From: a virus
Reading direction: 5' to 3' (one strand)
DNA: 64,000 nucleotides
IMG/VR virus record: IMGVR_UViG_3300032007_000018
Span: 8,445 to 72,444 of that record
Below the pieces are notes generated by a model, which was given only the letters and a program-made list of their open reading frames with translations, was not told the origin of the DNA and did not search any database. The translations under genes and the position numbers were made by a program. Shown piece by piece: positions 1 through 64,000 of this stretch (positions are counted from its first letter, which is position 1; each line of letters begins with the position of its first letter).

Positions 1-1424
1 AAGAAGAATATAAGAATCCTCGTAATTTTGCAGCGGGTAGTATTCGTCTATTAGACGCAAGCGAGTGCGCCAAAAGAAAATTAACCTTCGTAGTTTGGGA
101 AGTAATTGAAGGATTTGAAGAAATTGATTCTCTACAAGAGCGTTTGGCTAAAATAGAGAAACTAGGTTTCTTTACAGTCCCATGCTTAAAAACTGCGATG
201 ATTACTGATGATGTAGTCGAAACTATTAAAACTTTAAGCCAAAATATTCCAATAGATGGAGTTGTTTTTAAGTTTGATAGTGTCTCTTTTGGCAAAACTC
301 TTGGAGAAACTGCCCACCATCTTAAAAACGCTATTGCCTATAAATTCTATGATGAAGTTTATTCAACTACTTTACGCAGTATCGCATGGACAATGGGTAG
401 AACTGGAGTTCTTACTCCAGTAGCATTATTTGATCCTGTAGATATTGATGGTACAGAAGTTGAACGAGCTAGTCTTCATAATTTAAGTATTCTTGAAGAA
501 ACTCTAGGTAAAACTCCATGGAACGGTCAACTTATTGGCGTTTTTAAAGCAAATATGATTATTCCACAAATTGGATGGGCAGATTTAGATACTGTTCCAG
601 AAGAAAATAAGATAATTCCTATTTTAACGCATTGCCCAATTTGCGGCAGTCCGTTAAGAAAAAAACAAAATAATGATTCGGTCTTTTTAGAGTGTAGTAA
701 TGATGATTGCGATGGTAAGCTTATTAATCGCCTAGATCATTTCTGCGGAAAAAAGGGATTAGATATTAAAGGATTATCTAAGGCTACATTAGAAAAATTA
801 GTCGATTGGGGCTGGGTAAATAGCCCAGTGGATATTTTTTACCTGGGAGAGCATCAAAAAGATTGGTCTGGAAAACCAGGCTTTGGAGAGAAATCTGTTC
901 AAAATATTCTTGATGCTATTGAGGCAAGTAAAGAATGTAGTTTTGAATCGTTTATCTCCTCTCTTGGCATTCCTCTTATCGGAAGGAATGTAGCTAAAGA
1001 TTTAGCAGGACATTTTGGCTGTTATGACTGCTTATATGAAGCAATTAAAGAAAATTACGATTTTTCTCAACTTCCAGGCTTTGGAGAAAGTAAATCTCAA
1101 GCTTTATTAAATTTTGATTATACGGAAGCAGATCAATTATATGGAATTCTTGACGTGCAAATGTCCGAAATAACAACAAATGATGCAAAATTACCTTTAA
1201 AAGATATGAAATTTGTAATTACAGGAACTGTAAAGCATTTCAAGAACAGAGCTGAATTGCAAGAATGCATCGAGAAAAATGGCGGCAAAGTTGTATCTAC
1301 TATTTCTAAAAATGTTAATTATTTAATTAATAATGATGTAAATTCAACTTCATCTAAGAATGTCGCAGCAAAAAAGATGGGAATTCCAATCCTATCAGAA
1401 GACGAGTTTTTGGAGAAAATTTGA
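1..1424 (+). CDS. ligA: NAD-dependent DNA ligase (LigA), 5'-partial. The frame is open from the window start, the stop is TGA, and there are no in-frame TAGs. OB-fold (DGVVFKFD, AIAYKF), Zn-finger (CPICGS..C..C), HhH and C-terminal BRCT-like region are present.
   Basis: Frame-3 translation is open from nt 3. Motifs NPRNFAAGSIRLLD, DGVVFKFD and AYKF are typical of LigA; the Cys4 Zn finger is present. Confidence 0.85.
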   Translation, partial: EEYKNPRNFAAGSIRLLDASECAKRKLTFVVWEVIEGFEEIDSLQERLAKIEKLGFFTVPCLKTAMITDDVVETIKTLSQNIPIDGVVFKFDSVSFGKTLGETAHHLKNAIAYKFYDEVYSTTLRSIAWTMGRTGVLTPVALFDPVDIDGTEVERASLHNLSILEETLGKTPWNGQLIGVFKANMIIPQIGWADLDTVPEENKIIPILTHCPICGSPLRKKQNNDSVFLECSNDDCDGKLINRLDHFCGKKGLDIKGLSKATLEKLVDWGWVNSPVDIFYLGEHQKDWSGKPGFGEKSVQNILDAIEASKECSFESFISSLGIPLIGRNVAKDLAGHFGCYDCLYEAIKENYDFSQLPGFGESKSQALLNFDYTEADQLYGILDVQMSEITTNDAKLPLKDMKFVITGTVKHFKNRAELQECIEKNGGKVVSTISKNVNYLINNDVNSTSSKNVAAKKMGIPILSEDEFLEKI

Positions 1425-1678
1425 TTGATTTTTCTAAAAATTTTTCGTACAATAAAATTGTAAAAATTAAGGATGAAAATTTTGTAATGAAACTAAAAGA
1501 ACTCAAAAAGCTGGCTAAAGAAATCGTCACTTTAGAGCAAATTATCGATACGAATGAAGATGAAAAAGCCGTGAATAAGGCAAAGAACCGAATTATTGAA
1601 ATTTCCGGCCATTTAGATCCGGAAGATATGATGCGTATCGACGAATTAGTTCAAGAACAAATGCAGAACCAATCTTGA
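1421..1678 (+). CDS. Hypothetical small protein (85 aa from TTG 1421; the alternative ATG at 1487 has an AAGGA RBS).
   Basis: ORF track frame 2. Its start overlaps the ligA stop. Confidence 0.45.
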   Translation: MIDFSKNFSYNKIVKIKDENFVMKLKELKKLAKEIVTLEQIIDTNEDEKAVNKAKNRIIEISGHLDPEDMMRIDELVQEQMQNQS

Positions 1679-2035: not shown

Positions 2036-2050
2036 TTAAAGCATAAATTA

Positions 2051-2087
2051 TGCGGGGTGGGTTAATCGCCCACTCCGCATTTTTTAT
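2051..2087 (+). terminator. Rho-independent terminator (stem tgcggggtggg/cccactccgca followed by a T-run).
   Basis: Inverted repeat plus TTTTTTAT immediately after the TAA of CDS 1769..2035. Confidence 0.7.
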
Positions 2088-2088
2088 A

Positions 2089-3078
2089 ATGATTATCCTA
2101 TATGTACTTATCGGCCTACTTGTAGGAAGTCTTGGGATCTATTTACTACTTAGGCCGAAATTAAAAATTACTGCTCAAAAAAATATTGCTATAGAATAGG
2201 CAAATCAATAGCTTGAAATTCAAAATAGTAATTTGCTTGATGTTCAACAACATCGCAAAGAATTATTAGATAAAACAACTCAAGAATATCATGAAATGGG
2301 AGCCAAAAGAGAAGAAATCAAAAAGGCTCTTGAAGATTTGCGCGAAACATAGCAAAAAGCCGCTGAAGACTTATATAGTTAGGCTTTAAATATTGCCGAA
2401 AATTCATATGAAAAAGAAATTGACCGAATTAGTGATGACTTATTTCAACATCGCGAAGAAGCGAAAAATCTTTACCTTCAAGTCACTGAAGAGGCCGTCC
2501 AAGAGTTTGAAGAAGCTATTGAAGAAAAAGAAAAAGAATTTTCATATTGGAATGGACGAATTATTGCCTTACAAAAAGATGTATAGGTCGCTCTTGAAGC
2601 GGCTTAGCGCAAACTCGCCATGGAAACATAGCAAGACTATTATCGTGTATGTCTATCCGATGAAGATGTTACAGAGATAAAACGCTTGCGCGAAGTGCTT
2701 CCATATTTGCGCGACAAAACTCCATTGAATAAAGTTATTTATAAAGTTTATTATGAACGACCATTAACAGACATGATTGGCAGAGTGGTCGGAACTGGTG
2801 TTCATACTGGTATTTATAAAATTACTAACATTAATAACGGAATGTGTTATGTAGGCCAAGCCGCAAACATTGCAGATCGCTGGAAACAGCATTGTAAACG
2901 CGGTGTTGGCGCAGAAGACTGGACCCAGAATAAACTTTACCCAGCTATGTATTCTCTTGGAGTTGAAAATTTTACTTTTGAGATTGTTGAAGAATGCAGT
3001 AGAGATGCTCTCAATGAGAGAGAAGATTATTGGCAAGATTATTTTCACGCAAAAGATTTTGGATATAGTATAAAATGA
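2089..3078 (+). CDS. Membrane-anchored protein: N-terminal TM helix, coiled-coil region (DUF4041-like) and a C-terminal GIY-YIG/T5orf172-like nuclease domain. It contains 8 in-frame TAGs, translated here as Gln.
   Basis: Frame 1 is continuous from ATG 2089 to TGA 3078 if TAG is sense. N-terminus IILYVLIGLLVGSLGIYLLL; C-terminus GIYKITNINNGMCYVGQAANIADRWKQH...NEREDYW. Track ORF 2686..3078 is only the C-terminal fragment. Confidence 0.6.
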
Positions 3079-4145
3079 ATGAAACTTATTATTATCAAAG
3101 AAGTGGCGAATTATATACTAAATATACCAAACGAGAAATTTGGGATATGATTGATCCAAGAGATACTACTACTTTTTTTCCATTTCTACAAGATATGAAT
3201 TACCCATATATTGAAGAAGAGTGGAAAAAATTTCTTGACAAGTATGATCCAAAAGATGGTAGAATTATCGGACGGTATATTGCTCTTATGCGCCTTAAAG
3301 GATATCAACCATATACTTGGTCTGATTCTGCTTTTTTGAACGAATTGAGATAGCAAAAGAATATGAACGAATTTTTATATATGGAAGAAGTTTTATGCTA
3401 CGGTGATACTTTGCCGATAGCATATCATAGCGCACTTGAAGTGTTACAGCAAGCCCCTATTGTTCCTTGTCCGGATTGGAATACAAATCAAAAGGAAATA
3501 TCTGTCACTATGGTCGTTGGAAATCCATTAAAAGAACCAATGATTAGCAAACTATCTTTCTGTGATCCAGATAGCTTGGAACAATATCGTCAAGAAATGC
3601 TTGATGGTATTCTTGATTTTGAAATTGATAAAGGTAATTGGGTATATACTTATCACGATAGAATGGTAAAATATTGCGTTGGCGAAGAATGTGTAAATCA
3701 AATTCAATTTATTATTGATGAATTGAAGCGCAATCCATACTCTCGTCGTGCCGTAATTGACATTCGTAATAACGGTGAGGATATGTATAGTGACGATCCT
3801 GCCTGTTGGCAGCACGCCCAATTTTTCATTAGAGATAATAAACTTTATATGAAAGTTCTATTTCGCTCTAATGATGCTTGTAAAGCCGCTTTTATGAATG
3901 CTTTTGCGTTAATTATGCTCCAGAAGAGAATTGCTGATGAACTCGGTGTTGAAATGGGAACATATACACATAGGGCTAATAGCTTTCATTGTTATGAACG
4001 AGATTTCGATATGCTCGATGGTTATGTTAATAGAATCGCTCATGGTAGTGATGTGACATATTCATACGAGGACGATTGGAAGGAGCTAATGGAAGAGGCA
4101 AGACCTGAGATAGCTAAAAAAGTTGAATTTCTAAAAAATAAATGA
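3075..4145 (+). CDS. Thymidylate-synthase-family enzyme (ThyA or dUMP hydroxymethylase-like) with a ~96-aa N-terminal extension and one in-frame TAG at 3351. The core domain is 3363..4145.
   Basis: Track ORFs 3075..3353 and 3363..4145 are in the same frame, separated only by TAG. Conserved motifs: PYSRRAV, DPACWQHAQF (catalytic Cys), FRSND..FMNAFAL (an Asn at the dUMP-specificity position). There is an ATGA overlap with the upstream gene. Confidence 0.6.
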
Positions 4146-4533: not shown

Positions 4534-4594
4534 AAAATTGGTCAAAATCCTTTCATACTATAAAAATAATTTTTATATTTAATAGAATGGAGGA

Positions 4595-5521
4595 TTGATA
4601 AATATGATCAATGTTACAGAGGTTTCTATACAAGACTATTTTAATAAAAATGAAGAAGATAAGCAAAAATTTTATGATTTGATTTTAATAAATAATAATA
4701 AAGTTTCATCTAATACTCATTATAAAACGGTTATTTCGCCTGCGCCGCAAGCAAAAATCCCAGAAAAATTTTTTCATCAATTACAAGGCAAATTAAAATA
4801 TATTGCTCCACTACGAAAAAAGCATAAACAAAATGGTGGACTATCATTTTTAACCCTATGCGATTGTGGATAGTGGCATATTTTAGATGCGATAGATTTC
4901 AGAAAAGAAAAATAGACAATGTGTCCAACATGTAAATATAATAATATGACAACTATGAAGAATATTTCTGGATAGATTTTTGGATAGCTTTAGGCAATAC
5001 GCCCATCATCAAAACGTGGTTCTGATGGTTCTGTATATTGGATTTGTCAGTGTATAGATTGCGGTAATCAGTAGGAAGTAATTAAATATAATTTAACTAA
5101 AAAAGGTCATTTATGTGCTGTTTGCGGAGAAAAATCTAAAGGAGAATATAAAGTTGCTCAAATGCTTTAGGAAAATAATTTATGTTTTATAAGAGAAAAA
5201 ACATTTGAAGATTGTTTATTCCCAGATTCTTTCGCTCATGCAAAATTTGATTTTTTTGTAGATAATAAATATATTATTGAGATTGATGGATAGCATCATT
5301 TTTTTCCAGTGAAATATGGAAAAAATATAAGCGATCAAGATGCAAAATTATTATATAATAAAGTCCTTAATCACGATAGATACAAAAACCAATATTGTTT
5401 TTTGCATCAAATTCCTATTATTAGAATACCTTATTTAGCTATAGAAACTTTAAAGATAGAAGATTTAATGGTTGAAACAAGTAAATTTTTATTATATAAT
5501 ATAAGTATAAAAAATAATTAA
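4595..5521 (+). CDS. Putative freestanding homing endonuclease: repeated Zn-ribbon DNA-binding modules (YWICQCIDCGN) plus a C-terminal DUF559/Vsr-like PD-(D/E)xK nuclease domain. About 9 in-frame TAGs.
   Basis: Track ORFs 4595..4873 and 5309..5521 are in the same frame and the intervening frame is open except for TAGs. C-terminal FDFFVDNKYIIEIDGQHHF...IIRIPY. Paralog of CDS 15928..16809. Confidence 0.6.
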
Positions 5522-5535: not shown

Positions 5536-6468
5536 ATGAAAACTATGATAAATAGCACACATGTCGAGGGCTTAGTTTACGAATCTACTCTTGAGCTTCG
5601 CGTTTCCGGCGAGAATTCTAAGAATCCCGGCACCGAGTTCATTATGGGTAATTTGAACATTGCAACTGATAATGACTGCACAAATATCGTTCCAGTGCAT
5701 TTTACTTATGTGACCGCAACTACTTCCAAGGGTAATGCAAATGCTACCTTTGGCGTCCTCAAGGACATTATTGATGGTAAGATTGGGACCGTTATGGCTA
5801 ATGGCGCAGAGAATGCGGGCAAGGTTCGCATCGATTCTGCTATCGGTCTTAATGAGTTCTATTCCGATAGAAATGGTAAGGAAGAGCTTGTAAGTGCAAA
5901 GCGTAATGAGGGTGGATTTGTTCATACTGTCGCTACTCTGAACGAAGACGAAAAAGCTCGTAATACTTTTACTGCTGATATGCTGATTACCAGCGTAACT
6001 CATGTTGATGCTGACGATCTTAAGGGAACTAAAGAGAAGGCTCTTGTTCGCGGCTGCGTTTTTGACTTCCGCAAAGCAGTTCTTCCTGTTGAGTTCTCTG
6101 TAACCAATGCTCGTGGTATGGATTATTTTGAGGGACTTGATGCTTCTCCTAAGACTCCTGTATTTACCAAGGTTTGGGGCCGTCAGGTTTCTAAGACCGT
6201 GACCAACGAGAAAATTGAGGAGTCTGGTTGGGGCGAAGCTAACGTTCAGACAAGCACCAGTACTCGTCGTGACTGGGTTATCACTGGTAGTAATACTGAG
6301 CCTTATGAGTGGGATAGCGAAGAGACTATCACAGCTAAGGAACTCACCGAGGCTATGGCAAATCGTGAAGTATATCTCGCTGGCATTAAGCAGCGTTAGG
6401 ATGAGTATAAGGCAAGTAAGGCTGCTGCTCCCGCGGCGGCTCCTGCCACAGGTGGGTTCAACTTCTAA
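5536..6468 (+). CDS. Hypothetical abundant protein (310 aa; possibly an ssDNA-binding partner of the downstream Sak4-like ATPase). It reads through the TAG at 6397 and ends with ...GGFNF at TAA.
   Basis: ORF track 5536..6399 plus an in-frame extension. Codon usage is GC3-rich and highly biased. It lies immediately upstream of the recombination ATPase. Confidence 0.55.
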
Positions 6469-7651: not shown

Positions 7652-8188
7652 TTGTTGGCCCATTATGTAACTTGCTCCATCTGTAATAAACGTTTTGACC
7701 GCGATAAATTTCCGGCAGTCCTGACCAGCTCAAGACGCTATGCTCATGCGTCCTGTGCTGGATAGCTATCTGAAGAAGACGCATAGAAAGAAAAAGATTA
7801 TTTAGATTTAGAAGCATATATTATTAAGTTATTCAATTTAGAGCATATGGACGGTCGCATAACTCTTCAAATTAAGAAGTATATGCAAGACCATCCGGAG
7901 TATACATATTCAGGTATTAAAAGAACTTTACAATATTTTTATGAAGTAAAAGGCAATTCTATTGAAAAAGCGAATGGTGGAATTGGCATTGTTCCTTGGG
8001 TATACGATGAAGCAAAAAGATATTACTACAATCAATGGTTATTGAGCCAAAAGAATGCGGATAAAGATATTCAAGCATATACCCCAAAAGTAAAAGAAAT
8101 AACTATCAAACCGCCAAAACGAGAACCGAAGAAGAAGAGAATCTTTATGTTCCTAGATGAAGAGGAGGTCAAAGACTGTGGCAAGTAA
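7652..8188 (+). CDS. Hypothetical Zn-finger protein (CSICNKRF...HASC) with 2 in-frame TAGs. The start is a TTG near 7652/7655 after an AGGGGGA RBS.
   Basis: Frame 2 is open from 7652 and joins track ORF 7847..8188. Confidence 0.45.
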
Positions 8189-9722
8189 ATATATTGATAC
8201 AACCGCAATCATGTAGGTAATTGGTAATGTTTTTAATAATCCACAGCTTTTGGACTTTACAGATAAATATACAGTAAATGACGAAGATTTTCCAGACCAA
8301 TTTCATAAAATAGCCTTTGGCGCAATTTATAAGCTTCATGAACTTGGCGTTCAGAAGATAACACTAAATGCGATTGCAGACTTTCTGGCGGCGAGACCTA
8401 AAAGTGAAGCGGTATTCAAACAGCAAAAAGGCGAGGAATGGTTGCTCAAAGTCGCAGAGAATTGCACACCAAATGCTTTTGATTATTACTACGATAGATT
8501 AAAAAAGTTTACTTTATTAAGAGCATATAACGCTTATGGAGTAGATGTTACTGATATATATGATCCAGACGACATTCTTGATACTAAGAAAAGACAAGCT
8601 CAAGAAGATAAATTAGATAATATGAGTCTGGTTCAAATAGCGGATTTAGTTGATAAAAAGATAGAGGATATTCGTCTTCGATTCGTTGATGAAGTAATTG
8701 ACGAAGCGCAACAGGCTGGCGAAGGAATTTTTGAACTAATTCAAGGGTTCAAAGATAACCCAGAAGCAGGAGTATCTTTATATGGTCCGCTTATAAATAC
8801 AGTAACCCGTGGCGCACGATTGAAGAAATTCTATCTGCGCTCGGCCGCTACTGGTGTCGGAAAATCTCGTTCAATGGTGGCGGATGCTTGTTATATCGGA
8901 TGTAATAAGATGTATGATGAAATCTTCGGTTGGATTAAAACGGGACCAGCGCAGCCAACTTTATATATTGCAACCGAGCAAGATTTAACAGAAATTCAAA
9001 CAATGATGCTTGCATTCTTATCCAATGTGAATGAAGAACATATCATTGATGGTAAGTATGAAGGCGATGAAGAAGAGCGCGTGATGGAAGCTGGAAGAAT
9101 TCTTAAAGATTCTCCATTGTACGTAGAACATCTTCCCGATTTTTCGCTTCAAGATGTTGAGAACAAAATCAAGCGTAATATTCGTGATCACGATGTTAAA
9201 TATATTTTCCACGACTATATTCATACTTCAATGAAGATTCTTGAAGAAATTACTCGTCGTAGCGGTGGCGTTAAGTTGCGTGAAGACAACATCTTATTCA
9301 TGCTTTCTAACAAGATTAAAGATATATGTAATGAATATGGCGTATTTATTATGTCAGCGACTCAGCTAAATGCTGATTATCAAACTAGCGAGACTCCAGA
9401 CCAAAACTTACTTCGTGGCGCAAAGAGCATCGCCGATAAGATTGACTTCGGCGCGATTATGCTTCTTGTAAAAGATGATGATAAGAAAGGTTTGGAAAAG
9501 ATACTCGCTACTGGAACGTTTGAAGTTCCAACGATTAAGATTTCAATTTATAAAAACCGCCGAGGAAGATATAAAGGAATCTACCTTTGGTGTAAAGCAG
9601 ATTTAGGCACCTGCCGCATTAAACCAATGTTCGCAACGGGATGGGATTATGAACTTATCCCGATTGATGATACAAGAATACATATAGCAAGCGCATTTCC
9701 AGATGATGAAGATGAAGATTAA
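8178..9722 (+). CDS. dnaB: DnaB-like replicative DNA helicase (GTG start with AGGAGG RBS; TAG at 8211).
   Basis: Walker A GVGKS, a DnaB-like N-terminal domain and an arginine finger RRGR. In-frame with track ORF 8250..9722. Confidence 0.7.
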
Positions 9723-9733: not shown

Positions 9734-9958
9734 ATGCTTAGAAAAAGTGAAAAGTTTGGAACAAGTATTATGAAGCTCGGCTCTGAAACTGGTAGAGTCG
9801 GGTCCGTAGAGTATCAGATGCCGCAGAAGATGGCTGATATGCTCCTAAAAGAGCGTAAGGGCCAGGACAAGAATATGCGTCCGCAGGACTTTCTTGTGAA
9901 ATATGTTAATGACGAATGTCGTCTACTTTATAAGTGCGTGAAGGTGACCACTATCTAA
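9734..9958 (+). CDS. Hypothetical 74-aa protein.
   Basis: ORF track; RBS AAGGAGA. Confidence 0.5.
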   Translation: MLRKSEKFGTSIMKLGSETGRVGSVEYQMPQKMADMLLKERKGQDKNMRPQDFLVKYVNDECRLLYKCVKVTTI

Positions 9959-12383: not shown

Positions 12384-12447
12384 GGAGATAGTGAATGAAA
12401 AAGAGGCTTTCTGGATAGTGGTAAATGTGAAAGGAGGTTGATTTTCT

Positions 12448-15875: not shown

Positions 15876-15927
15876 ATAATTATTTTAATTTTTCATATAT
15901 AATAGAAAAATTAAAGGAGGATTTGCA

Positions 15928-36966: not shown

Positions 36967-37000
36967 TTGTTATTCGCTCCTCTCTATTATTAGACTTCAA

Positions 37001-39491: not shown

Positions 39492-39509
39492 AATTATTTA
39501 ACCTCCTTA

Positions 39510-46793: not shown

Positions 46794-46939
46794 ATGTTTT
46801 CTCCTTTCATCTCAAAATATACAAAAAAGGGTATGAAGAAAAAGGAAACTTTTTCTCCATACCCTTTTATTTATAGAGTTATTTCCTCTAATAAATTCAA
46901 AAAATTTAAGAGGTTAATTAAAAACATTTGTCCGGAATA

Positions 46940-48736: not shown

Positions 48737-48752
48737 TTATATAACTCCTTTC

Positions 48753-49814: not shown

Positions 49815-49946
49815 ATTGTCTCTCCTTTCTTTAGATTATCCATTATAATATAAAAAGCAATATAAATAAATTACCCCAATCTGGCCTACTAAAAAAAACC
49901 AGATTGGGGTAAAATATTAAAGCAATGATTTACGATATTCTAATTC

Positions 49947-52871: not shown

Positions 52872-53224
52872 CAGTTATCTCCCTCCCCCTCATATACCAT
52901 ATCAACTATTATCCAGGCACTAGGATTATTTATAATATAATTCAAAGAAGTTTTATTAAATGATAGCCGTGCTATTCCACTTCCATCTGTAAAATCTAAT
53001 TCAAATAATCCCGTGTAATTTATAATGGCTTCTGTGTCAGAATCGTTAATATTAAAACGAGTTCCAGGAGGCGCTGAAATACCAAGTTTTATAATAGGAG
53101 CATATTTATCGAATAATGTTCCATCGCCCCATGCTGCAATTACATCATTAGCCAAACTAAATCTTGGCTCATTATTCATCGCTGATAAATTATAAAAACG
53201 AAATTGCTTAAATTTTTGCGCCAT
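52871..53224 (-). CDS. Hypothetical 117-aa protein.
   Basis: ORF track; RBS AAAGGAGGAA; TGATG overlap with the downstream gene. Confidence 0.55.
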   Translation of the reverse strand: MAQKFKQFRFYNLSAMNNEPRFSLANDVIAAWGDGTLFDKYAPIIKLGISAPPGTRFNINDSDTEAIINYTGLFELDFTDGSGIARLSFNKTSLNYIINNPSAWIIVDMVYEGEGDN

Positions 53225-53244
53225 AATGATTCCTCCTTTTTCTC

Positions 53245-56200
53245 TTAAATAATGCGCTCGGGCGCTTTTGTTGCGGTAATTGACATTGTACCATTATAAG
53301 TAAGAGGTACAGTAATTTTGTTAATTATATATTCTCCATCAATACCAGTTTTTTCATCTTTTACAAATATACGAGTATTTGGTTGTAAATAATATACTGG
53401 TAATGCAGTAATACTAATATTTTCAATGCAATAAGAATGTTGATATACTAGACTATCAATTTCATCTTTTGCTGATTTTCCTCGATAACTAATTGTAAAT
53501 AATTTTTCCATTGAAGGAGATAAAAATATCCAAGAATATCCTGTCTTCTCTTTAATAGCATCTCTATTAATATTAGAGGTAGAAGTAAAAATAAAATGAG
53601 GAACCTCTTTAAAATAAATACCGCTTACTTTAGAATCATTAAGTACTTTGGTTCTATCCCCAACTTGTGGTACAGAAAAAGCTCCAACGCTACTATCATC
53701 TTCCAAAAAATCAAACCAAAAATTTAAAGTATCGGGAGACTCAAATACCGCTCGATTCCAATATGCAATATTGCTTCCACTTGGAACAAAAATTTTATTT
53801 ACTTTTTCTTCTAATTCATCAGTAAAATCATTTGCATAAGAGTCGGTTATTAACTCGTATTCATCGCCCTACGGACCACCATTGCCTTGCAAATCTTCAT
53901 TCATATCTCCATTGCTGGTTTCTGTACCAGGCAAAAAGAAATCACAATTTACATCAATTAAATGACCAGCGTTCCAAACAACTGATTTATCATAAGTTCC
54001 TGTAATAGGATTTTCATTAGTTTTACTATCAGAATAATAACCATTTGACCAAGTTAATTCTAATTTCGCATCCGGATTATACAGCTAACGCCAAAAACCT
54101 TGCATATCAGTATAATACTGTTCATACCCAGTATAACCAGTAGGATAAAATACTGGATTATACTTAGCGATAGTTGGAAGAAAATCATCTTTTTCATTAT
54201 TAGCAAAATAATCTATTGCCATCTAATAAATTATTTCTCTCCAGTCTACAACATAGTCAGTTTCTTGAGAGAATATAACAGAACCATCTAACTGTTCTGA
54301 TAAAGTATCTAAAACCTAAAATCCTTCAACGGTTCCATATGTTTCACCTTTATAGTTTGTATAAATAATAGGCTTTTTATCAATAGCATAACGCATATGT
54401 ACAGGAATATCAATTCCAGATACGCCCTTGCGCACACCCCATACTGAATAATCATTTTTCATATTAGCAATATTAGGAGTATTCTAAAATGCTGAAATAA
54501 GTTTATTACCAACAAAGCTATATAGCGAAGAAGAAGTTAATGCTGATGGAATTACCATAGTATCGCCTTCTACTTCTTTAATAGCAGACCAAGCAGTGTC
54601 TATATAAGTCTACTTCTTTTGGAATACAAACTATCCATCAAGATTATAAAAATATTCAAAATTACCGAGCATATTTTTAATTTTATCTAAAACGGAAGTG
54701 ACAGTATCGCCAATCGCCGCAATCAATTCTCCTGCATATACCAAATCAGTTGTACGATAACCGGCATCTTCACCGTAGTTTAATAGTCGCACTACATAAA
54801 CAGAAGGCATACGAGTGCCTGCTACATAGGCTCCTTCTCTAATCACCCAGGTTAAATCAGTAATACTTCTTTCTGCAATACCGCCTGTTGCTGTATCAGT
54901 AATAATACCATCTTCAATAGCTTCAGCTATTGTTTTTTTAGGCCAGGAATTTCTAGTAGATACATTAAAATAGTCAAGTATGGCCTTATTCAAACCGGCT
55001 GTTACGCCTAACGCATTATAGTCTTCGGAAGGTAATATATACACCATGCCCTGACTATTGGTAGAAAGCTAGCGATAAATATCATCGTTAATTGGTTTAA
55101 AACAATATAGTGTTTTATCGCCATTATAAACTAATTGCTCTAACCCAAAATCATCTAAGTCATTGATGATTATATTCTAATACGGCTCTCCAGCCCATGC
55201 GTGAACAGCTTCACGAATAATTTTTTTAATTGGAATAGAAGTCTTTGTAACTATTTCTTCTTTATCATAGTATGTTTGAGAAGGCGTATAACTACCCTCT
55301 GCCAAAACATATTTACGAACATAATACTCGGTATTAGTCGCAAAATAAGTAATATTGGCTACGTTATAAACACTACCATTCTTTGTGTAATAGGTCTAGT
55401 AAGTACTAAAATTACCTTTATATTTAGTATATTCATTAGTTGGAACATAATATTTATGACTAGTATATTCTCTAATATCTGTAAAACTATGAGGAGTATA
55501 AATATAATCTATCATTTCTTCTTGGCCAAAATCGATAGATGCTGTTAATTGACCACCAAGATCTCCATTTAACATACACATTTTATCTTTTCCGTTAATT
55601 GTAACAGTCTACCCATTTGCTTGAATAGAAGAGTTAAAGGCGGAAATTATAAAAGTTCCTTGCGGGAACCATAGTATATCCGGATAAGGATTCTTTTCAT
55701 AAAATGGATTATTTGCTTTAATATGATATCGAATGAACTATTGCTAATTGTCATCAAGCGTTATCATATTATTATTTGCATCAACATATCCATCTATTTC
55801 ATAAATACCAGAAGAAGTCATTGTATAGTGACTTACATATTCTACTCCATTAGAAGCGGTATAGTAATATAACGTATTACCATTTGAATCTTTTTCATAC
55901 GTATAGTGATTTTTTAATATATCGCCAACAGTATTTTTCAATCCAATTTCAACCTTGATTTTGGTTTTTATACCCCAATAAAAATCATTAATATCTAAAT
56001 CTTGACTAACCAAGGTTAAATTACAGGTTCTTCTTACTGCTGAATTACCATCAACATTAATGGAACCAGCAGTAAGACGACCTTCGATATATTCAATAGG
56101 ATTTTCATCCATATCTAAGGAAGTAATGCGGGCATAAATTTCTCGATGCTCTTTCTGATCAAGTTGCTCTAAGAATTCTTTATCTTGCAAATAAGAATAA

Positions 56201-58782
56201 AGCATTTATTATACCCCCTCATACTCCTAAGATTCTATTGCCGCGAGCAATTCTTCAAGTCTTTGTAAATAATAAGGATGATTTACATTATTATTGCATT
56301 GCACCAAGAGCTAACGTAATTCATCTTCTTTTTCAATTTCATAATTTACCAATTTCAAAGTATAAGTACAAATTGCGGCAACTCCATTGTAAACAAATAC
56401 TTCGTCATAAGAAGAATCGGAAAAGATAAAATCTTGAGGAGAACCGCTATCTACGCGGAACATTTCTCCATTAACCTTAACGCTATAATTAATTCCAGAT
56501 TCTCCCTAGTCAATTAGGAAAAATTTTGGATTTACAGAAGTTCCATCATAATCTAAATAATAATATCTAATTCTATTCAGATCAGGTCTAGTGATTTTAT
56601 AGATCTTATCTCGCGCAAGTAAATTTACATCGACTGCGCCAGAAAATACGTCATTATCATAATCGGTATAATAAACTGTATTACTGCCAGAACCGGTTTC
56701 ATATAATTCTACAATCTATTTTCTATAAAATTGTATTGAATGGAACTTATAAACTTCTCGCTTACAATTTCCATTAACAGAAGAAATAATCTCTACTGGA
56801 CCAACATACGTTTCAGCTCTATCTTCTAACGATATGTCATCAATAACACTAAATCTATTTACTGCGGAAGTAATATATCTATATGTTAATGAACCAATCA
56901 GCCCAGGCTGTTCTGGGTCATCAGATGGAATATAAATATCTGGTTGATTAGTTGTTCCAGTATCAATAGTTAAGATATTATTATTTGTGATATAAATCTT
57001 TTCTCGCTATTCTACTGGCTATGAATCGCTTCCTCTTAAAACATAGCTTCCTGGCAATGCGCCTTGAATCTGCATCCAACCAGCGATTGTATAATTATTA
57101 ATTTTACCATACTGATAAGCATTATCTTTAAAGAATGGAACCGTTTCATATGCATAATAAGATTTTTCTACATCAGATGTTTTGAAAAATCCAAGAGAGA
57201 GTAAATTATCATATGTAAAATCAGCTACCTAATATGCTGTGGCTGAAAAAGTATGAAGCATGCGGCTGAGCTTATCTTCTGGAGCCAGAGAAATATTAAG
57301 TAATCTTACTAAAAAATTACCCTCGGCTGGAGATTTAAATAATTTCATTTCTCCATTTCCAAGCCATTGTAAGACTGACATTTTAAATTGTCTTTCGGCA
57401 TAAATGTTATAATCAACCAGGTCAGTGGTTGGATTTTTATATTTAGTAATTTTTTCTTTTTGGAAATCTTTTTCTTTAGTTGTAATTCTATGTTCAGTAA
57501 CATAATCAAGTCCTAATTGACCTTTTTCAATAAAAAACTCATTTTCATCACTTAAGTAAGAAAGCAATCCAGAAATAGGAAATTCAAAATATTCAACATT
57601 TCCATTTCTAAAAATAAATGGAAACTTGCTACCAATAGTATCAAGTTTTTGCTCTAAACGATCGATCTTAATTGAACTTACTTTTGGATTATATCTAATC
57701 TTTAATTGCTTCTCACCATCGTAGAGAAACATATCTTCAAAACACGCTTCTACTTTTGGCGAAAGAATACGCGCAGAATATAATCCATTATGATTATACT
57801 GCTGTACGGAATATTGATAAATTTTTCCCTGCTCAATAGTAAAATCTTTATATTCCCACGTAGTAACAGATAAATCTGAACTTAAATAGAATTTATATAA
57901 TTCATCCCAGTATAAAAATCCATTATCTGCGCAAGTACGACTTACCACATAAGTACCATGAGAACTAATTGGAGAAGGGCTTAAAGGCTCAAAACTTAAT
58001 TGAATATATCCATTATCATAATTATTTTTAGCCAATAAATTAACCTTTAAATAAGAACGGATACCTTCAACATCCATAATGGGATATGTTTGACTATATA
58101 CCTCTAATCCATTAATAGTACGCACGCCATATTCTACTTTGTATGTCTCCATAGGTATAAGCGTTTGCGCAAATGAATAACTATCAATACTTTGAGATAA
58201 TGCCAATATTTGATTGGAGCTTGTATCAATAGAAGAATTGTGTAATAACCATCCGCTAGATTGCATTAGGTTATTATGTAAATCATACAAATTAAAAATA
58301 TATGAATGAACCTTTTCAGATGTATCACATTCTTCTCCTACCTACTGATATAAACCTACATAAGTACGTTTAAATGTATTAACACCTGTCTCCATACCCT
58401 GAATAGTTACTGTTGGTTTTGCTGTAAATTTTGCTATTCCAACAGTAGAGTAATAACCAACGCCTGCTGTACTAACAAAAGCTATCTAAATTTTAAAGTA
58501 TTGACCTATCATCATATTTTTGACTGTCTCAACTGGTATAATAAATTTTGCTACCAATTCATCAACAGCTTCTTGCGGATTAATGCTATATAATGTCTGC
58601 GTTAAAGTATTACTCTAAACGGTTTTAATTTTTAATGAAATACCAGATACTTCATTTTTACTAACCGCTCTATTCATAGAAAACGGGACGGCAAGATTAG
58701 CCGTCCCATCCTAATTCTTGTAAAAGGCAGGTATTGTACCCTCTATAGATGGGGGATATAATTTTTCAGTCAATACTGCCAT
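53245..58782 (-). CDS. Giant virion structural protein (1845 aa; tail/baseplate-like, beta-rich), TAG-dense.
   Basis: Track ORFs 53245..53706, 54631..55047, 55396..55581, 55744..56205 and 57229..58290 are all in the same frame. I translated the gaps 53707-54630, 55048-55395 and 58291-58782 and found them open apart from TAG. ATG 58782 has RBS AAGGAGG. Confidence 0.45.
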
Positions 58783-58788
58783 TTTAGA

Positions 58789-58983
58789 TTAAGCCTCCTT
58801 TACTTCTGGAGAACTTGCATTCTTTTGCTCGCTTTCTGCGGTCTTAGCAATTTCAGTTACAACTTGCTCGAGAGCGCGGAGAGAATCGGTCATAAGGAAA
58901 CTACTCTCGCCCTTTGTATGAACCTCAAGAAGAGTGTTATAAATACGAGTAAGTTGAGTAAATTGTTCTTGTGTAATAGTCAT
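58789..58983 (-). CDS. Small 64-aa protein with GC3-biased (high-expression) codon usage.
   Basis: Inside track ORF 58789..59028. ATG 58983 has a strong RBS AAAAGGAG 7 nt upstream. Confidence 0.5.
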   Translation of the reverse strand: MTITQEQFTQLTRIYNTLLEVHTKGESSFLMTDSLRALEQVVTEIAKTAESEQKNASSPEVKEA

Positions 58984-59193
58984 AATCAAAAACTCCTTTT
59001 TTTCCATTTTTATATATAAAATACTCAAGCGAATCGAGCATATATACCATATTGATTCTATGCGGAAACATTAACCGTAAGAATTCCACTATTGTAATCT
59101 ATAACACGCGTTGCATTGTTTGGATTAGAATGTCTATCGCCGACTGGAGCGACAGGTCCTAGTTGAAAGCGTTCACAATATACCATAAACTAA

Positions 59194-62100
59194 TCAAAAT
59201 TTGGTGGCGTAGTTACATTTAATGATTTCATTCCTGATATACGAACATCTTTTTTTATATTGCCTGTGTCTGGACCAGCCTCAATAATAATACTGTTATC
59301 ACTCTAAATTCCAAATAATTGAGTTTTTCTATAGCGTTTTCTACCACTTGCAGTGTAATAAATTTCTCCACCAGAAGCTTGTCCTATCGATCCATTAACT
59401 GCACTATTAGCGCTTTCTATTATAATAGTGTCTGTTGTAATAGTACCATCCGAACTATCTAAAATGGTTAAACTTTTACCATTGGTCGGCTGACTTCTTA
59501 GCAATGGATTATCAATAATCCATCCTCCGATAGTGCCTACGTCGGCATATAACTCACTAGCTTGTACATAAGTACCTTCAATACGAGCACCTTCAATATA
59601 GCTACCGTGAATTTCTCCACCAGTAATATAACCACCATCAATAATTCCGCCAGTTAAGGTACCAGTAACGGTTAAATTACCAAGGGTTCCTGTTTTAGCA
59701 TTAATGTTTCCTGTGAAGTCTCCATTGGCAATATAAACATCTCCGTTCCAATTAACCCTGAATGGTCTACGAGAAGTAGATTTTTCGACGCCAATAGCAA
59801 GTGGATATGTTTTTTCATTCGCGCCTAAAGTAATATGTCTTGTGACATTGCCTGCACTTAAATCAAACACATAGTATTGTGCCAATGGATCAAAATGGTT
59901 ACCGCCAGAATTATTTGACGCAACAGTATTATTACGAGTAATTTCATAACCGAATTCTCTATAATCATCTTCCTAAGAAATATCATTTCCTTTTGTATAT
60001 AAAATACCTTTAATTGAATCTCTATTAGAAGATGTTAAATGTGAAAATGCGCTATGTTGAGAATAAGATTTATTATCACCCTTAACAATAGCGGTAAAAT
60101 TAGTAAAATAGTAAAGTAAATCTGGATTATACGTATCTGTGCTGTGCCCAGTATATGCTTGACTTAATCCTAAATACTTTATTGTTCTTGTAGAGTAATT
60201 ATATTTAGTCTAACCTTCATCTATCACAGGTGTTTCTTCTGTAATGGAATAAACAATAGCTGGAAAATTCTCATTATATGAATTATAAGGATAGCTGACT
60301 ATATCATAATAGATATCTGTTGTAGGGGACCAATTATTCTTTTTTGCAACTTTTTCTTCTGTGATAATATTTGTTTCTACTTTATAAAAGTAATCATAAT
60401 TAGGTAAATATGTCTATGTGTCAAATGTTTTTGTTGATTGCGCGGAGGTTAAATCTGGCATATAAATCACTACGCTATTATTTACATTTGTAAAACTAAA
60501 GCTACTATTCTGAGTAGACATAAGTAAAGATATAAAATCTTTCTTAACCCAAAAACTTTGAGTAGCTTCTTTAGTATTTAAGAACGTAATAAAATTAGTG
60601 GATGTATTAAAAGTTTTAAGCTATTGTGCAACTTTATTAGACATATGAATAAATCCATCATCCAGATCCATCATCATGCCTTCTTTTCGGATTAGCCAGT
60701 TATTAGAATAAATAGTTGAATTATCTCCCCCAAGGAAGATACGACCTTTACCATCTTTTCCAATAAAACCAGTACCATCTTCTTTAAAAGCATAACTCAT
60801 AGCCCCTTTGTGGAAGCCATAAATACCAGTCTTTTTAGTAATTGAAGAACAAGTATCTGTTCTTGACCAATCTCCAATCATAACACCTGTAAAAGTGTTA
60901 TCAGTTTCTTTTTTACCAGCAGCTAAAGCTGATGCTAAAATAGTTCCGGTATCGTTATCTGTTTCAATGTCTGTACCATTCCAGGCATTAATTGTACTTG
61001 ATGGATAATTATCCTAATAAACTAGAATTGGCTATGTCCAAAAAGCTGCATTCTCACCTGTGAATACAATTTGTGATCTATACTAAATTCCATAATTTGG
61101 AGCATTTGGAATATACATATTTAATGGTTCTAAAATATCATTATTTAGTTTTGGTTGAAATGCCAAATCTGCCCCAGAAGAGAATACACTATTACTTGGA
61201 ATTAATAATGTCCAAGTCATTTGATAAGCCTATGGATCTGTAATTAGCTTGCCGTCTTGAATAACGTATGCTTTATATGGATTCTTATAATATTCTGGCA
61301 CTTCTCCAGAGGAAGTGTATCTAATAGAAGTGGCTCCTTCAATAGAATCGTACCATAAACTATAATCAAGAGCTCTCGGCTCTTTTATAAGAGTATAATT
61401 AGTATTTGATACAGTAACAATCTAATTCTATAATAGAACTCTACGAATTGGTATTGGATAAGAAGCTACTAAATCATAATCTCCAAAATTCTTTATTGTA
61501 ACTCTCAAGATATTAAGAGAATTCATTATTTCAGATAATGTAATATAATTATTTATATCTTGATAATACTAAGTATTTATACTAATTCGTTTGCGAGTTA
61601 TATTATCTGCATTAGTACATATTAATGGAGTAGTTAAATGTGTTACTTCCTAAGTATATACTGGATAATAATATGTTTCAACCTCATTCCACTCTTTTGC
61701 GGTATCAAGGATAAACATACCATTTCGTTGAATATATAATTTACCAACCTTATTATATAAAACTTCTGCGGCATTTTCAATAGAGTCTGTATTTGTTAAA
61801 GCTCTAATTGTACCTGAGCCGTTCATCTGTACTCTATTATCAGATAATAGCTGGCCTTCATTATTATACTAATCAATAACAATTTCTTCACCGCTTTTAG
61901 CTGAAAAATCTGGGAAAATTTCGAACTCAATTTTATATTTTCTATTTATATCGTTCTAAGCACGACGATATAATATAACTGAATTTTTCAGCCTATAGGT
62001 TACTACATTATTACTTGTGCTTGTTGTAAAATAGCTAGAAGGCAAACTGCTTAATGTGGTAATCAGATTAAATTTTCCATTATCATAATAATAATAACCA

Positions 62101-64000
62101 CCAGCAGAGAAGTCTTGAGAAGTGGTATTAGATGTATAATATAATACATTACCAATATTTCTTCCATCCTCAAAATAATAGTTAGTATGTGCATCGTTAA
62201 AATAATTATTCGCGCTATGCGGATAAGCTACATTTGACTAATCTAACGTAGAAGACTATCCCGTTTGAATTTTTAATGCACTTTGATCATTGAAAAATAT
62301 CGGATATAACAAATCTTCAGTCTCTACTGTATATTCAGTAGCGGCTTCTTTGTTTGTCTTCATTTCAGCGACAAGCCAATCGAAATCAATAGATACTTTG
62401 CTAGCTTCATTAAGACGATTAAAAGCATCAGTTTCTTTCGCCGTTTTAATTGTCGCTCCAATAGTTGTAGAAGCATTATACTGATTTGGATTCTATAATC
62501 CAGAGGAAGAGTAAAAATCCCAATATGTATCATCTAATACTGCAGAATATTTTTCACGAAGAATTAAACCAAGACTGCGCTTATGTGCAATATTAGTTGG
62601 ATCGTTATCATTTGGAATATTCTTATATGCTTCAATATTAGAATCTACAGATGTTAATAAATCGATTTCTTTTCCATTCTATCCGTATAAATGGACTTGC
62701 GCAATTAATGCATAGTATGAATTTATATCTCCTAAATCCATAGCTCTACCTTCTACGCTTTGATAAAATCTGTTTCTATATCCCTGTAAAGTGCTGGCCT
62801 GTTCGCCATATACTGATAACGCATTTTGATTATTATCAAAAGTAACACTTACAGTATAAGAAGAACCAGACGTACCAGATTGACCAAAAAGAAGATCTTT
62901 TGTTACATGATAAGTAATCTTATCTTTTACAATCTGGCAATGAACTGTATTGTCAACTAGATTAGGCGCATAGGTTTTTCTAATAAAATAATGTGCTGTA
63001 ATTAAATCAAACTGATCTGATAAATCACCACTAACGATATCACCAAAGTGAGTTAATTCAATAAGTTTGGTTGCAGTATTAAATGTCGCTAGTAATTTTC
63101 TATCTTCGGTCTGAGCAATAACCAATCTATTTTCAATAGTGCCAAAAGCACGCTTCAATAGCTCTACTTCGTCAGCTGTAGGATCTCGCAAAGTAGCTTT
63201 TTCTAATTCAATAAAAGTATCTAAATAAAACACTGGACGAAGCATTGTATTTGAACTTGGAAACATCCAAGTAATACAAGTTGCCTCATTCAACAGGTTA
63301 TCTTCTGGATTAGTTTTACTATCTTTCATAGAGCGGAATGTAGCTGTTAAACTAAATCTTTCTTTAGCTCTATGTTCATCAACTAATTCATTTCCTTTTT
63401 TATAAATAAAGAACATTCCTTGCTCTGGCTCTAAATAGAATATATCATTCTCTTGACGATGACCACAAAGAATACCCAGCGCTTCAGAAATATCTGTTGT
63501 AGTAGTACTTGGTATGTCGTAAAGATTTGTGAAAACAAGCTAGTTAGTACGAGCAATTTCAGAATCGTTTTTTATAATTACAACCTAAAATTTTTCCTAT
63601 TCTTTATTTATATCTGGATAAAAACTTAACTAAAAAGGATCATCAACATCTTTCAACATATTCTGCAATGTTGGCAATGTTTCTTTGATGTATCCTTGGT
63701 ATAATTCAACAGTATCAAAATTAACTACTATGTTCTAATATAACTCAATAATTGAATTACAAAAATTATAGTTAGAAGCTAATTCATCAGCGCAATTTTG
63801 ATACCAACCAATTTTCTCCTTATTGTCGATAATATAATTATAAGCTGCATTATAAGCAGTTAAATAAGTGCTATCAACATCGACAGGGTTATTAATAGTA
63901 AAATTAGTAATATTGGTTGAAACATTTATAATAGTAGATAAATTCTATAAGTCTTCTGGCATAGTTAGATGCTGCTAAGTAATATCTTGTCTACTCTAAA
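59194..64000 (-). CDS. Giant virion structural protein, 5'-partial (it continues beyond the window end), >=1565 aa, beta-helix-like (NLTVTGTLTGGIIDGGYITGGEIHGSYIEG), TAG-dense.
   Basis: Track ORFs 59304..59885, 60621..60881 and 62679..63416 are in the same frame. I translated 59886-60240 and 63417-63660 and found them open apart from TAG. The frame is still open at 64000. The 3' end is uncertain: TAG at 59304 or TGA at ~59194. Confidence 0.4.

What the first reader, a model, noticed from the sequence alone, without database searches (positions are those of the whole stretch)
1..64000. TAG appears to be reassigned from stop to glutamine throughout this phage (code 15-like)
At least 40 genes contain in-frame TAG. 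Adjacent six-frame ORFs separated only by TAG are in the same frame (for example 3075..3353 and 3363..4145; 16957..17403 and 17416..18024; five fragments across 39510..46793). The intervening stretches lack TAA/TGA, start codons and ribosome-binding sites. TAG falls on conserved Gln positions: GIY-YIG YVG-Q-T (10980), the dUTPase GDKIG-Q-G motif (27717), and the NrdD C-terminus, where the glycyl-radical motif RVTGY appears only after reading through the TAG at 25602. TAA and TGA remain stops. Standard code-11 gene calling would therefore truncate or fragment most of the late genes.
Basis: partly seen in the sequence, partly recalled or inferred. Interest (0 to 1): 0.85.

Follow-up and report, generated by a model that had tools for sequence, protein, structure and literature searches.

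The report
Phage that reads TAG as glutamine
This 64 kb piece of a large gut phage really does use the stop codon TAG as an ordinary glutamine codon, which is a well-documented phage habit ("genetic code 15"), so the finding is correct but not new in kind.

Summary
Observation confirmed and interpretation supported. If TAG is not a stop, open reading frames tile 97% of the window with 55 ORFs. The standard code gives 86% with 101 ORFs, and releasing TGA or TAA gives no such gain. About 36 of 53 genes carry 148-155 in-frame TAGs, and every gene ends in TAA (36) or TGA (17).

Codon-level alignments to related metagenomic phages pair TAG mainly with CAA and CAG. The substitution profile of TAG columns fits Gln far better than any other residue. 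At conserved motifs of standard-code homologues (dUTPase, NrdD ATP-cone, primase Toprim) TAG aligns to Gln. The sequence is 100% identical in independent assemblies, so the TAGs are not artefacts.

The phage is a new lineage of the SPbeta / Enterococcus EF1 / phAss-1 supergroup (DnaE-type polymerase at most 39% identical). It is probably from ruminant guts.

TAG density is very uneven: none in the polymerase or ligase, and about 20-35 per 1000 codons in homing endonucleases, a large tail-region protein and the tape measure protein. TAG also occurs in replication genes, not only late genes. No suppressor tRNA or release factor is in the window or in most related DNA. One relative carries a Gln-type tRNA(CUA).

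Novelty: new member of a known kind.

The parts
3..1424 (+). NAD-dependent DNA ligase, N-terminus off the window; 0 TAG in 473 codons
   Evidence: Pfam DNA_ligase_aden, OB and BRCT on the full 642-aa product in L019; TAG count
2047..3078 (+). GIY-YIG homing-endonuclease-like gene with 7 in-frame TAG (20 per 1000 codons); has a genuine Gln codon in its 'YVGQA' motif
   Evidence: Pfam GIY-YIG on the 342-aa read-through product
3075..4145 (+). Thymidylate synthase (YonG_N + Thymidylat_synt); in-frame TAG at 3351-3353
   Evidence: Called as one 356-aa product in the public catalogue; TAG position
4583..5521 (+). Homing-endonuclease-like gene with 8 TAG (26 per 1000 codons); paralogue of 15889-16809
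   Evidence: weak match to the VRE9_3 homing endonuclease
5536..6468 (+). YorF-like gene with 1 TAG. The longer minus-strand ORF 5572-6696 is an antisense artefact.
   Evidence: Pfam YorF; translation
8160..9722 (+). DnaB-type replicative helicase with an in-frame TAG near the N-terminus
   Evidence: Pfam DnaB and DnaB_C; 40% identity to the VRE9_3 DnaB across the TAG
9934..12099 (+). Primase split into 9934-10821 and 11644-12099 by an insert carrying GIY-YIG endonuclease 10879-11643 (5 TAG). The Toprim TAG in 'FDR-TAG-FQ' aligns to Gln.
   Evidence: The two halves align to adjacent residues of one VRE9_3 ORF; I-TevI match; Gln alignment
12442..14226 (+). RecJ-like exonuclease (DHH + RecJ_OB) with 5 in-frame TAG
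   Evidence: 592-aa read-through product; a single alignment to the VRE9_3 RecJ spans all 5 TAG
15889..16809 (+). Homing-endonuclease-like gene with 4 TAG
16957..18024 (+). Dda/UvrD-like helicase; TAG at 17401-17403
   Evidence: Pfam AAA_19, AAA_30 and UvrD_C_2 on the 355-aa product
18737..22747 (+). DnaE-type DNA polymerase III alpha (YorL-like); 0 TAG in 1336 codons where 10 are expected (P=4e-5)
   Evidence: Pfam PHP and DNA_pol3_alpha; 38-39% identity to SPbeta YorL and Enterococcus phage polymerases; Poisson test
23476..25713 (+). Anaerobic ribonucleotide reductase NrdD with 3 TAG inside the gene (23620, 23659, 25600). The glycyl-radical motif RVTGY lies after the last TAG.
   Evidence: Full-length alignment to 8p23 (E=5e-126). 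The ATP-cone TAG aligns to Gln in 2 of 2 structures; the others align to Y/A and D. Pfam Gly_radical is present in the 745-aa product.
25713..26204 (+). NrdG activase, 0 TAG
   Evidence: Pfam Radical_SAM and Fer4_12
27212..27802 (+). Trimeric dUTPase. The TAG at 27716-27718 sits on the conserved Gln of the GD-x-I-x-Q motif; a second TAG is at 27272.
   Evidence: Gln in 3 of 3 solved dUTPases and in VRE9_3
27799..28284 (+). RuvC-like resolvase with 3 TAG. The first aligns to Gln in VRE9_3 and to Pro in E. coli RuvC.
32759..63998 (-). Late (tail and virion) gene block with 84 in-frame TAG. TAG-dense genes: 49917-52874 (16), 53245-56205 (13), 56209-58788 (11), 59025-63998 (29; N-terminus beyond the window; 2033 aa in the near-identical strain L039). 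TAG-sparse gene: 39510-46811 (7 TAG in 2427 codons).
   Evidence: Lies next to the tape measure gene in L039 (98% nucleotide identity). PHROG matches are of unknown function only, shared with Enterococcus phage genes.

Best explanation
The window is part of a roughly 127 kb or larger tailed phage genome of the SPbeta / Enterococcus EF1 / phAss-1 supergroup. In this genome TAG is translated as glutamine (translation table 15), and TAA and TGA are the only terminators.

Shown: TAG occurs in frame in about two thirds of the genes. It is evenly spread along them and has no special sequence context. It interchanges with CAA and CAG in relatives, and it falls on conserved Gln residues of enzymes whose catalytic motifs lie downstream of it.

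[quoted passage not shown] One relative of this clade carries such a Gln-type tRNA(CUA). In this phage itself none was found, so the source of the suppressor is open: an unsampled part of the genome, the host, or something undetected.

The very uneven TAG density is compatible with two ideas. One is a staged code switch, in which the earliest genes are translatable before suppression starts. The other is avoidance of a slowly decoded codon in highly expressed genes. Because TAG is present in the helicase, primase, RecJ and NrdD genes, suppression must already work when DNA replication starts, not only in the late phase.
For: ORF tiling: 86% with 101 ORFs under the standard code, 97% with 55 ORFs when TAG is open; no gain from opening TGA or TAA. 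The same signature appears in related IMG/VR loci. It is absent in the standard-code control phage VRE9_3 and extreme in L039 (71% rising to 98%).

Codon-level TAG pairing with CAA and CAG, and likelihood ranking Q (-1002) >> K (-1271) > E. The tape measure gene gives Q (-2198) > K (-2298).

Gln at TAG positions in the dUTPase motif, the NrdD ATP-cone, primase Toprim, and the RuvC and dUTPase of VRE9_3. Single alignments span several TAGs, for example 5 in RecJ and 3 in NrdD.

100% identity to independent assemblies. Public gene catalogues already call these genes full length through TAG.

Uniform TAG position along genes, no +4 context bias, and heterogeneity chi2=141 on 52 df, p=4e-10. Major capsid protein and a neighbouring head protein have 0 TAG, while the tape measure protein has 72-111 TAG in relatives.

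A Gln-type tRNA(CUA) sits in clade relative L212. It has a cloverleaf fold. Its first 25 nt are identical to the phAss-1 suppressor, and it shares the UGGGG...CCCC-N-G73-CCA acceptor with E. coli tRNA-Gln.

Literature: TAG-to-Gln phages are described and validated by proteomics (PMC9523058). phAss-1, in the same supergroup, is recoded and carries suppressor tRNAs (PMC10607447). Only about 40% of TAG-recoded phage genomes have a detectable suppressor tRNA (bioRxiv 10.1101/2021.08.26.457843).
Against: There is no direct protein evidence for Gln at TAG in this phage.

No tRNA of any kind is in the window (ARAGORN; Rfam at E<=1). None of the suppressor type was found in about 4.2 Mb of fetched loci, apart from L212 and the phAss-1 positive control. 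No release factor or aminoacyl-tRNA synthetase domain appears among the Pfam hits of the called genes of window 1-32.7 kb.

Many TAG columns align to E, K, N, T or D in distant homologues. This is expected for surface Gln positions but is not by itself diagnostic.

Host identity rests only on phage-sized contigs binned into MAGs of mixed taxonomy.
Confidence: 0.93

Rival explanations
1. Stage-specific dual coding. TAG is still a stop in the immediate-early genes, which are translated by the unmodified host machinery, and becomes Gln only after a switch. On this view 'throughout this phage' overstates the case. This refines the main explanation rather than replacing it.
For: Polymerase, ligase, NrdG and several small early genes have no TAG. 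The early region of relative L045 (1-10 kb) has essentially no in-frame TAG. In relative L167, the promoter-rich immediate-early region has 3 of 9 small ORFs reaching a TAG 9-12 codons before the next TAA or TGA. Borges et al. propose exactly this model.
Against: Inside the window no gene needs TAG as its stop. DnaB, primase, RecJ, ThyA and NrdD all contain TAG. The TAG-terminated small-ORF pattern is not seen in relative L168 (1 doubtful case in 21). The immediate-early region of the window's own genome was not available.
Confidence: 0.3
2. TAG encodes a different amino acid, for example pyrrolysine or lysine, glutamate, tyrosine, leucine, serine or tryptophan.
For: Lys and Glu are the second and third best fits, and many TAG columns align to K or E in distant homologues. 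ARAGORN labels any CUA anticodon 'tRNA-Pyl'.
Against: Gln wins by 269 log-likelihood units in early genes and by 100 in the tape measure gene. CAA is the most frequent partner codon even though it is two mutations from TAG. Conserved-motif positions are Gln. The clade's tRNA(CUA) has a tRNA-Gln-type acceptor stem. No pyl genes appear among the Pfam hits.
Confidence: 0.03
3. The TAGs are true stops. The genes would then be fragmented pseudogenes of a decaying element, sites of low-level programmed read-through, or sequencing or assembly errors.
For: No suppressor tRNA was found in the window.
Against: The frames stay free of TAA and TGA for up to 2434 codons, whereas off-frames carry 40-110 TAA+TGA per 1000 codons. 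Protein similarity continues across the TAGs. Catalytic motifs lie downstream of TAGs. The sequence is identical in independent assemblies. The same pattern holds across a whole clade, with interchange between TAG and CAA or CAG.
Confidence: 0.01

Closest known systems
Genetic code 15 (TAG to Gln) phages: crAss-like phages, some Lak phages and the Garnet, Amethyst, Sapphire and Agate clades (Ivanova 2014; Yutin 2021; Borges 2021/22, bioRxiv 10.1101/2021.08.26.457843; Peters 2022, PMC9523058)
   Same: TAG is used in frame as Gln, TAA and TGA remain stops, the genome is low in GC, it comes from a gut environment, recoding is dense in structural genes, and the suppressor tRNA is often undetectable. 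The ruminant source and genome size (127-190 kb) resemble the 'Agate' clade (154 +/- 27 kb, cattle and pig).
   Different: TAG is also used in core replication genes, and the major capsid gene of relatives is TAG-free. Recoding therefore does not simply mark the late genes. Membership of a named Borges clade could not be tested because no reference sequences were available.
phAss-1 / proposed 'Phassvirus' (Babkin et al. 2023, PMC10607447; OQ749652; NCBI 'Caudoviricetes code 15 clade')
   Same: Same supergroup: DnaE-type polymerase, NrdD/NrdG, dUTPase, a tape measure protein of about 3000 aa and a genome of about 130 kb. TAG is recoded in about 40 ORFs. Its 75-nt suppressor tRNA is 81% identical to the tRNA(CUA) of clade relative L212.
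   Different: The polymerase is only 35% identical and there is no nucleotide-level match. phAss-1 has 36 tRNAs, including three Sup-CTA per the paper, two of them seen here beside nrdD. This window and most related loci have none.
Bacillus phage SPbeta and Enterococcus phages EF1 / VRE9 (standard code)
   Same: YorL-like polymerase (38-39% identity), YorF, YorH and YonG_N domains, and conserved order of replication genes. RuvC and dUTPase lie next to the structural block.
   Different: These cultured phages show no gain from opening TAG. The window lineage is recoded and only distantly related.

Membership tests
TAG-to-Gln recoded (code 15) phage | Many essential genes contain in-frame TAG with intact reading frames and homology downstream | tested here: met
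   36 of 53 ORFs and 148-155 TAG; coverage rises from 86% to 97%; single alignments span TAGs
TAG-to-Gln recoded (code 15) phage | TAG positions correspond to Gln in homologues | tested here: met
   CAA and CAG are the dominant partner codons; Gln has the best log-likelihood; conserved Gln in dUTPase, the NrdD ATP-cone and Toprim
TAG-to-Gln recoded (code 15) phage | TAA and TGA remain terminators | tested here: met
   All 53 ORFs end in TAA (36) or TGA (17); opening them gives no tiling gain
TAG-to-Gln recoded (code 15) phage | Phage-encoded suppressor tRNA(CUA). This is frequent but not universal: about 40% of such genomes. | tested here: inconclusive
   None in the window or in most related loci (and others). 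Present in clade relative L212. About half of this phage's genome was not available.
TAG-to-Gln recoded (code 15) phage | Accessory code-change genes (RF2, GlnRS). Occasional, not defining. | tested here: not met
   No RF or tRNA-synthetase Pfam hit among the called genes of window 1-32.7 kb. Late ORFs match only PHROGs of unknown function shared with Enterococcus phage genes.
TAG-to-Gln recoded (code 15) phage | Gln observed at TAG positions in peptides | not testable with these tools
   Needs metaproteomics of the source sample
SPbeta / EF1 / phAss-like large siphoviruses | YorL-type DnaE polymerase, SPbeta-specific domains, a very long tape measure protein and a genome of about 125-160 kb | tested here: met
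   Polymerase 38-39% identical; Pfam YorF, YorH and YonG_N; tape measure protein of at least 2895 aa in the 98%-identical strain L039; source-like contigs of 103.9 + 23.4 kb
Phassvirus (phAss-1 genus) | At least about 70% nucleotide identity and synteny with phAss-1 | tested here: not met
   No megablast hit; polymerase 35% amino-acid identity
Agate clade of Borges et al. | Placement in the TerL phylogeny with the Agate reference genomes | not tested

The most novel reading that the evidence does not exclude
This lineage reads UAG as Gln from the replication phase onward without a suppressor tRNA of its own. Decoding would then depend on a host-supplied or otherwise unrecognised factor, such as a host amber-suppressing tRNA-Gln, phage modification of a host tRNA or of RF1, or a non-canonical tRNA that current detectors miss. 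The uneven TAG density would reflect tuning of translation rate rather than a late-gene switch.
Probability: 0.15. Interest if true: 0.6.

Novelty: new member of a known kind. Interest (0 to 1): 0.27.

Why it matters
Practically, standard table-11 gene calling shatters this genome. The nearly identical strain L039 goes from 4 ORFs to 45. Any annotation must therefore use table 15, and current public catalogues already do.

Biologically, it adds a large, apparently abundant ruminant-gut lineage of SPbeta-like phages to the list of TAG-recoded phages. More than 8000 relatives of one of the clade's early-region genes (an RNA ligase found in relatives, not in the window) and 379 of a head gene were found. 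Recoding here reaches into replication genes while sparing the polymerase, ligase and capsid genes. This bears on the debated 'code switch regulates late genes' model. It does not change what is known about the phenomenon itself.

Tried and rejected
1. Megablast of 25 kb of the window against GenBank phages gave no match.
2. Look-ups of window proteins with a wrong or uncertain start found nothing.
4. Scans of IMG/VR with the giant tail-region protein and with the N-terminus of the 2434-aa protein found no relatives.
5. A scan of GTDB genomes with the polymerase found no close relative.
6. I hunted for a suppressor tRNA by walking along related contigs to the left, to the right, through metagenome contigs, through MAG contigs and around the RNA ligase. 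Only L212 had one. ARAGORN does detect the annotated phAss-1 suppressors, which served as the positive control.
7. Rfam at gathering and at E<=1 found no tRNA, group I intron or other family in the window, and nothing at gathering in seven related loci.
8. The 0.8 kb ORF-poor stretch L087:450-1250 gave only chance-level Rfam hits.
9. Sample accessions were not found in the literature.
10. The idea that some window genes end at TAG was rejected as untestable. Five genes have a TAG within 11 codons of the stop, about the number expected from their TAG density.
11. A possible '0.2-1 Mb contig' host lead did not materialise when more places were listed.
Full report

Yes. The window is 64 kb with 36% GC and no ambiguous bases. 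Tiling it greedily with stop-to-stop ORFs of at least 60 codons gives 101 ORFs covering 85.9% under the standard code. With TAG read through it gives 55 ORFs covering 97.3%. Opening TGA (101 ORFs, 88.3%) or TAA (91 ORFs, 93.0%) does not produce the same consolidation.

Counting from the first ATG, 36 of 53 ORFs contain at least one in-frame TAG, 148 in total. Counting stop-to-stop gives 155. All ORFs end in TAA (36) or TGA (17). Gene 39510-46811 has 7 TAGs, not 4.

The frames cannot be open by chance. In the two off-frames of these genes TAA+TGA occur at about 39 and 109 per 1000 codons, yet the coding frames run up to 2434 codons without either.

The sequence is 100% identical over 4-20 kb stretches to contigs assembled independently from other samples: ENA ERZ27256887, Logan SRR9008756 and SRR9008757, and JGI 3300026539. 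The TAGs are therefore not errors.

**2. Which amino acid?**

I collected related DNA from IMG/VR with the DnaE-type polymerase, GyrA and other proteins. I aligned all window ORFs to six-frame translations and read back the codons.

- Window TAGs face TAG (99), CAA (98), AAA (49), AAT (35) and CAG (33).
- Relatives' TAGs face window TAG (99), CAA (94), CAG (69) and GAA (33).
- Treating the residues opposite TAG as a sample from each amino acid's own substitution profile in the same alignments, Gln gives log-likelihood -1002. Lys gives -1271 and Glu -1362.

The tape measure gene of a 98%-identical strain has 86 TAG in 2896 codons (L039). Compared with 13 related tape measure genes it gives the same ranking: Gln -2198, Lys -2298.

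Against organisms that certainly use the standard code:
- The dUTPase motif TAG is Gln in 3 of 3 solved structures.
- The NrdD ATP-cone TAG is Gln in 2 of 2. The other two NrdD TAGs sit at variable columns (Y/A and D).
- Against Enterococcus phage VRE9_3, 30 TAG positions align to E6, K5, Q3, T3, N3, D2 and others. The three Gln are at the conserved Toprim, dUTPase and RuvC motifs.

The GIY-YIG 'YVG-TAG-T' position is Ser in I-TevI but a real Gln codon in the paralogous gene of the same window.

TAGs are uniformly placed along genes (KS p=0.82). Their flanking bases resemble those of CAA and CAG. This is what an ordinary sense codon looks like, not a programmed read-through site.

**3. What is the element?**

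The Pfam hits of the public gene calls are: DNA ligase, thymidylate synthase with YonG_N, YorF, AAA_24, YorH, DnaB, RecJ, a Dda-like helicase, DNA_pol3_alpha, NrdD/NrdG, dUTPase and RuvC. The polymerase is 39% identical to Enterococcus phages VRE9 and EF1, 38% to SPbeta YorL and 35% to phAss-1.

Together these place it in the SPbeta / EF1 / phAss supergroup as a distinct lineage. There is no nucleotide match in GenBank phages.

The plus-strand replication block (1-32.7 kb) converges on a minus-strand virion block (32.8-64 kb). In the near-identical strain L039 that block continues into a 2033-aa protein and a tape measure protein of at least 2895 aa.

Source-like ENA contigs of 103.9 and 23.4 kb abut near window position 12 kb. 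This implies a genome of about 127 kb or more. Relatives reach 127-197 kb.

Phage-sized contigs with the clade's head protein are binned mostly into Bacillota MAGs from rumen, sheep, deer and yak guts. This is weak evidence for host and habitat.

**4. How TAG is used**

Density is highly heterogeneous (chi2=141 on 52 df, p=4e-10).

| Gene or class | TAG usage |
|---|---|
| Polymerase | 0 in 1341 codons (10 expected, P=4e-5) |
| Ligase | 0 in 473 codons |
| NrdG and several small genes | 0 |
| Replication genes (DnaB, primase, RecJ, NrdD, ThyA) | 2-8 per 1000 codons |
| Four homing-endonuclease-like genes | 14-26 per 1000 |
| Large tail-region protein 59025-63998 | 17.5 per 1000 (29 TAG, P=4e-5 for excess) |
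| Tape measure genes of L039 and relatives | 26-35 per 1000 |
| Major capsid gene and neighbouring head gene of relatives | 0 |

TAG makes up 16% of Gln codons in the early/middle block and 26% in the late block.

Recoding is needed for replication proteins too, and some of the most highly expressed late genes avoid it.

The earliest genes of relatives are TAG-free. In one relative, three of nine tiny immediate-early ORFs reach a TAG shortly before the next stop. That hints at the staged 'code switch' of Borges et al., but another relative does not show it.

**5. Mechanism**

No tRNA is in the window (ARAGORN; Rfam tRNA model at E<=1). No release factor or synthetase domain is among the Pfam hits.

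For the 127.7 kb relative IMGVR_UViG_3300037453_001206, everything outside the window-equivalent part was read except 5.7 kb, and no tRNA was found. In about 4.2 Mb of fetched loci, the only CUA-anticodon tRNAs were the phAss-1 positive control and one in metagenome contig L212.

L212 shares the clade's early genes: an RNA ligase closely similar to the clade's, plus phosphoesterases. Its tRNA(CUA) has these properties:
- It folds as a cloverleaf.
- Its first 25 nt are identical to the 75-nt phAss-1 suppressor (81% identity overall). Babkin et al. assigned that suppressor to Gln (PMC10607447).
- It shares the U1, G2-G5/C-run and G73 acceptor features of E. coli tRNA-Gln. That these are GlnRS identity elements is my own knowledge and was not tested here.

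The most likely mechanism is therefore the known one: a Gln-type amber suppressor charged by the host GlnRS. For this particular phage the gene was not found. Borges et al. detect suppressors in only about 40% of TAG-recoded genomes, so the absence is unremarkable but unresolved.

**6. Comparison and novelty**

TAG-to-Gln recoding in phages is established. Metaproteomics has confirmed it in crAss-like phages (PMC9523058). NCBI taxonomy has a 'Caudoviricetes code 15 clade'. The public protein catalogue already translates these very genes through TAG.

The window is not a Phassvirus: the polymerase is 35% identical and there is no nucleotide similarity. Its size and ruminant source resemble the Agate clade, but I could not test that.

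Verdict: a correct call of a known phenomenon in a new lineage. Interest is modest. The only open thread is where the suppressor comes from.

Noticed in passing
window 9934-12099: The primase gene is split in two (9934-10821 and 11644-12099). The halves align to adjacent residues of a single ORF in Enterococcus phage VRE9_3. The roughly 0.85 kb insert carries an I-TevI-like GIY-YIG endonuclease (10879-11643). It looks like a mobile intron, but no Rfam group I or II model matches. The independent ENA assembly breaks just after it, near 12 kb.
   Followed up: partly
L019:1726-4726 (8 kb left of the window): GyrB is interrupted in the same way: GyrB+Toprim at 1726-3282, a GIY-YIG gene at 3459-4172, and GyrB_C at 4526-4726.
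   Followed up: no
window 2047-3078, 4583-5521, 10879-11643, 15889-16809: Four homing-endonuclease-like genes are the most TAG-dense genes of the early block (14-26 per 1000 codons). They have therefore evolved for a long time inside recoded genomes. 4583-5521 and 15889-16809 are paralogues (31% identity).
   Followed up: partly
window 5572-6696 (-): A 375-codon open frame antisense to the YorF-like gene 5536-6468. Its composition looks non-coding, so it is an artefact that naive longest-ORF selection would pick.
   Followed up: yes
L167:10388-14827 (relative IMGVR_UViG_3300037453_001206, 123.3-127.7 kb): An immediate-early-looking region with seven copies of a near-consensus TTGACA-N17-TATAAT promoter, several other repeat families, and ORFs of only 40-100 codons. 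Three of nine ORFs reach a TAG 9-12 codons before the next TAA or TGA, which may mean TAG acts as a stop there.
   Followed up: partly
L075:233-2470, L076:408-2319, L075:9506-18964: In relatives the major capsid gene and the neighbouring head gene contain no TAG at all. The tape measure gene contains 72-111, and the portal gene in L087 has 17.
   Followed up: partly
L212:579-1780: A tRNA cluster (Thr-UGU, Thr-GGU, Gly-UCC and a CUA-anticodon tRNA) sits in one clade relative, upstream of the RNase T and RNA ligase genes. The syntenic regions of L045, L281 and L283 have no tRNA.
   Followed up: yes
L281:904-16377 and L283:3549-17167: The early region of relatives encodes an 815-aa protein with major-vault-protein shoulder domains (PF11978), NADAR, RNase T, an RNA ligase (PF21189), an AAA_33 kinase, several metallophosphatases and a flotillin-like protein. 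This may be an RNA-repair or anti-defence set.
   Followed up: no
window 29145-29234, 32677-32749, 46793-46871: Sub-threshold Rfam hits (E 0.04-0.08) fall at gene-block boundaries. They are most likely terminator hairpins at convergent transcription points, not the named families.
   Followed up: no
L087:450-1250: A 0.8 kb stretch with no convincing ORF lies between the terminase-side genes and the small early genes of a relative. It contains the repeated motif TTAACAGAAATTTAACAAT and a GC-rich segment. Its function is unknown; it could be a packaging or regulatory region.
   Followed up: partly
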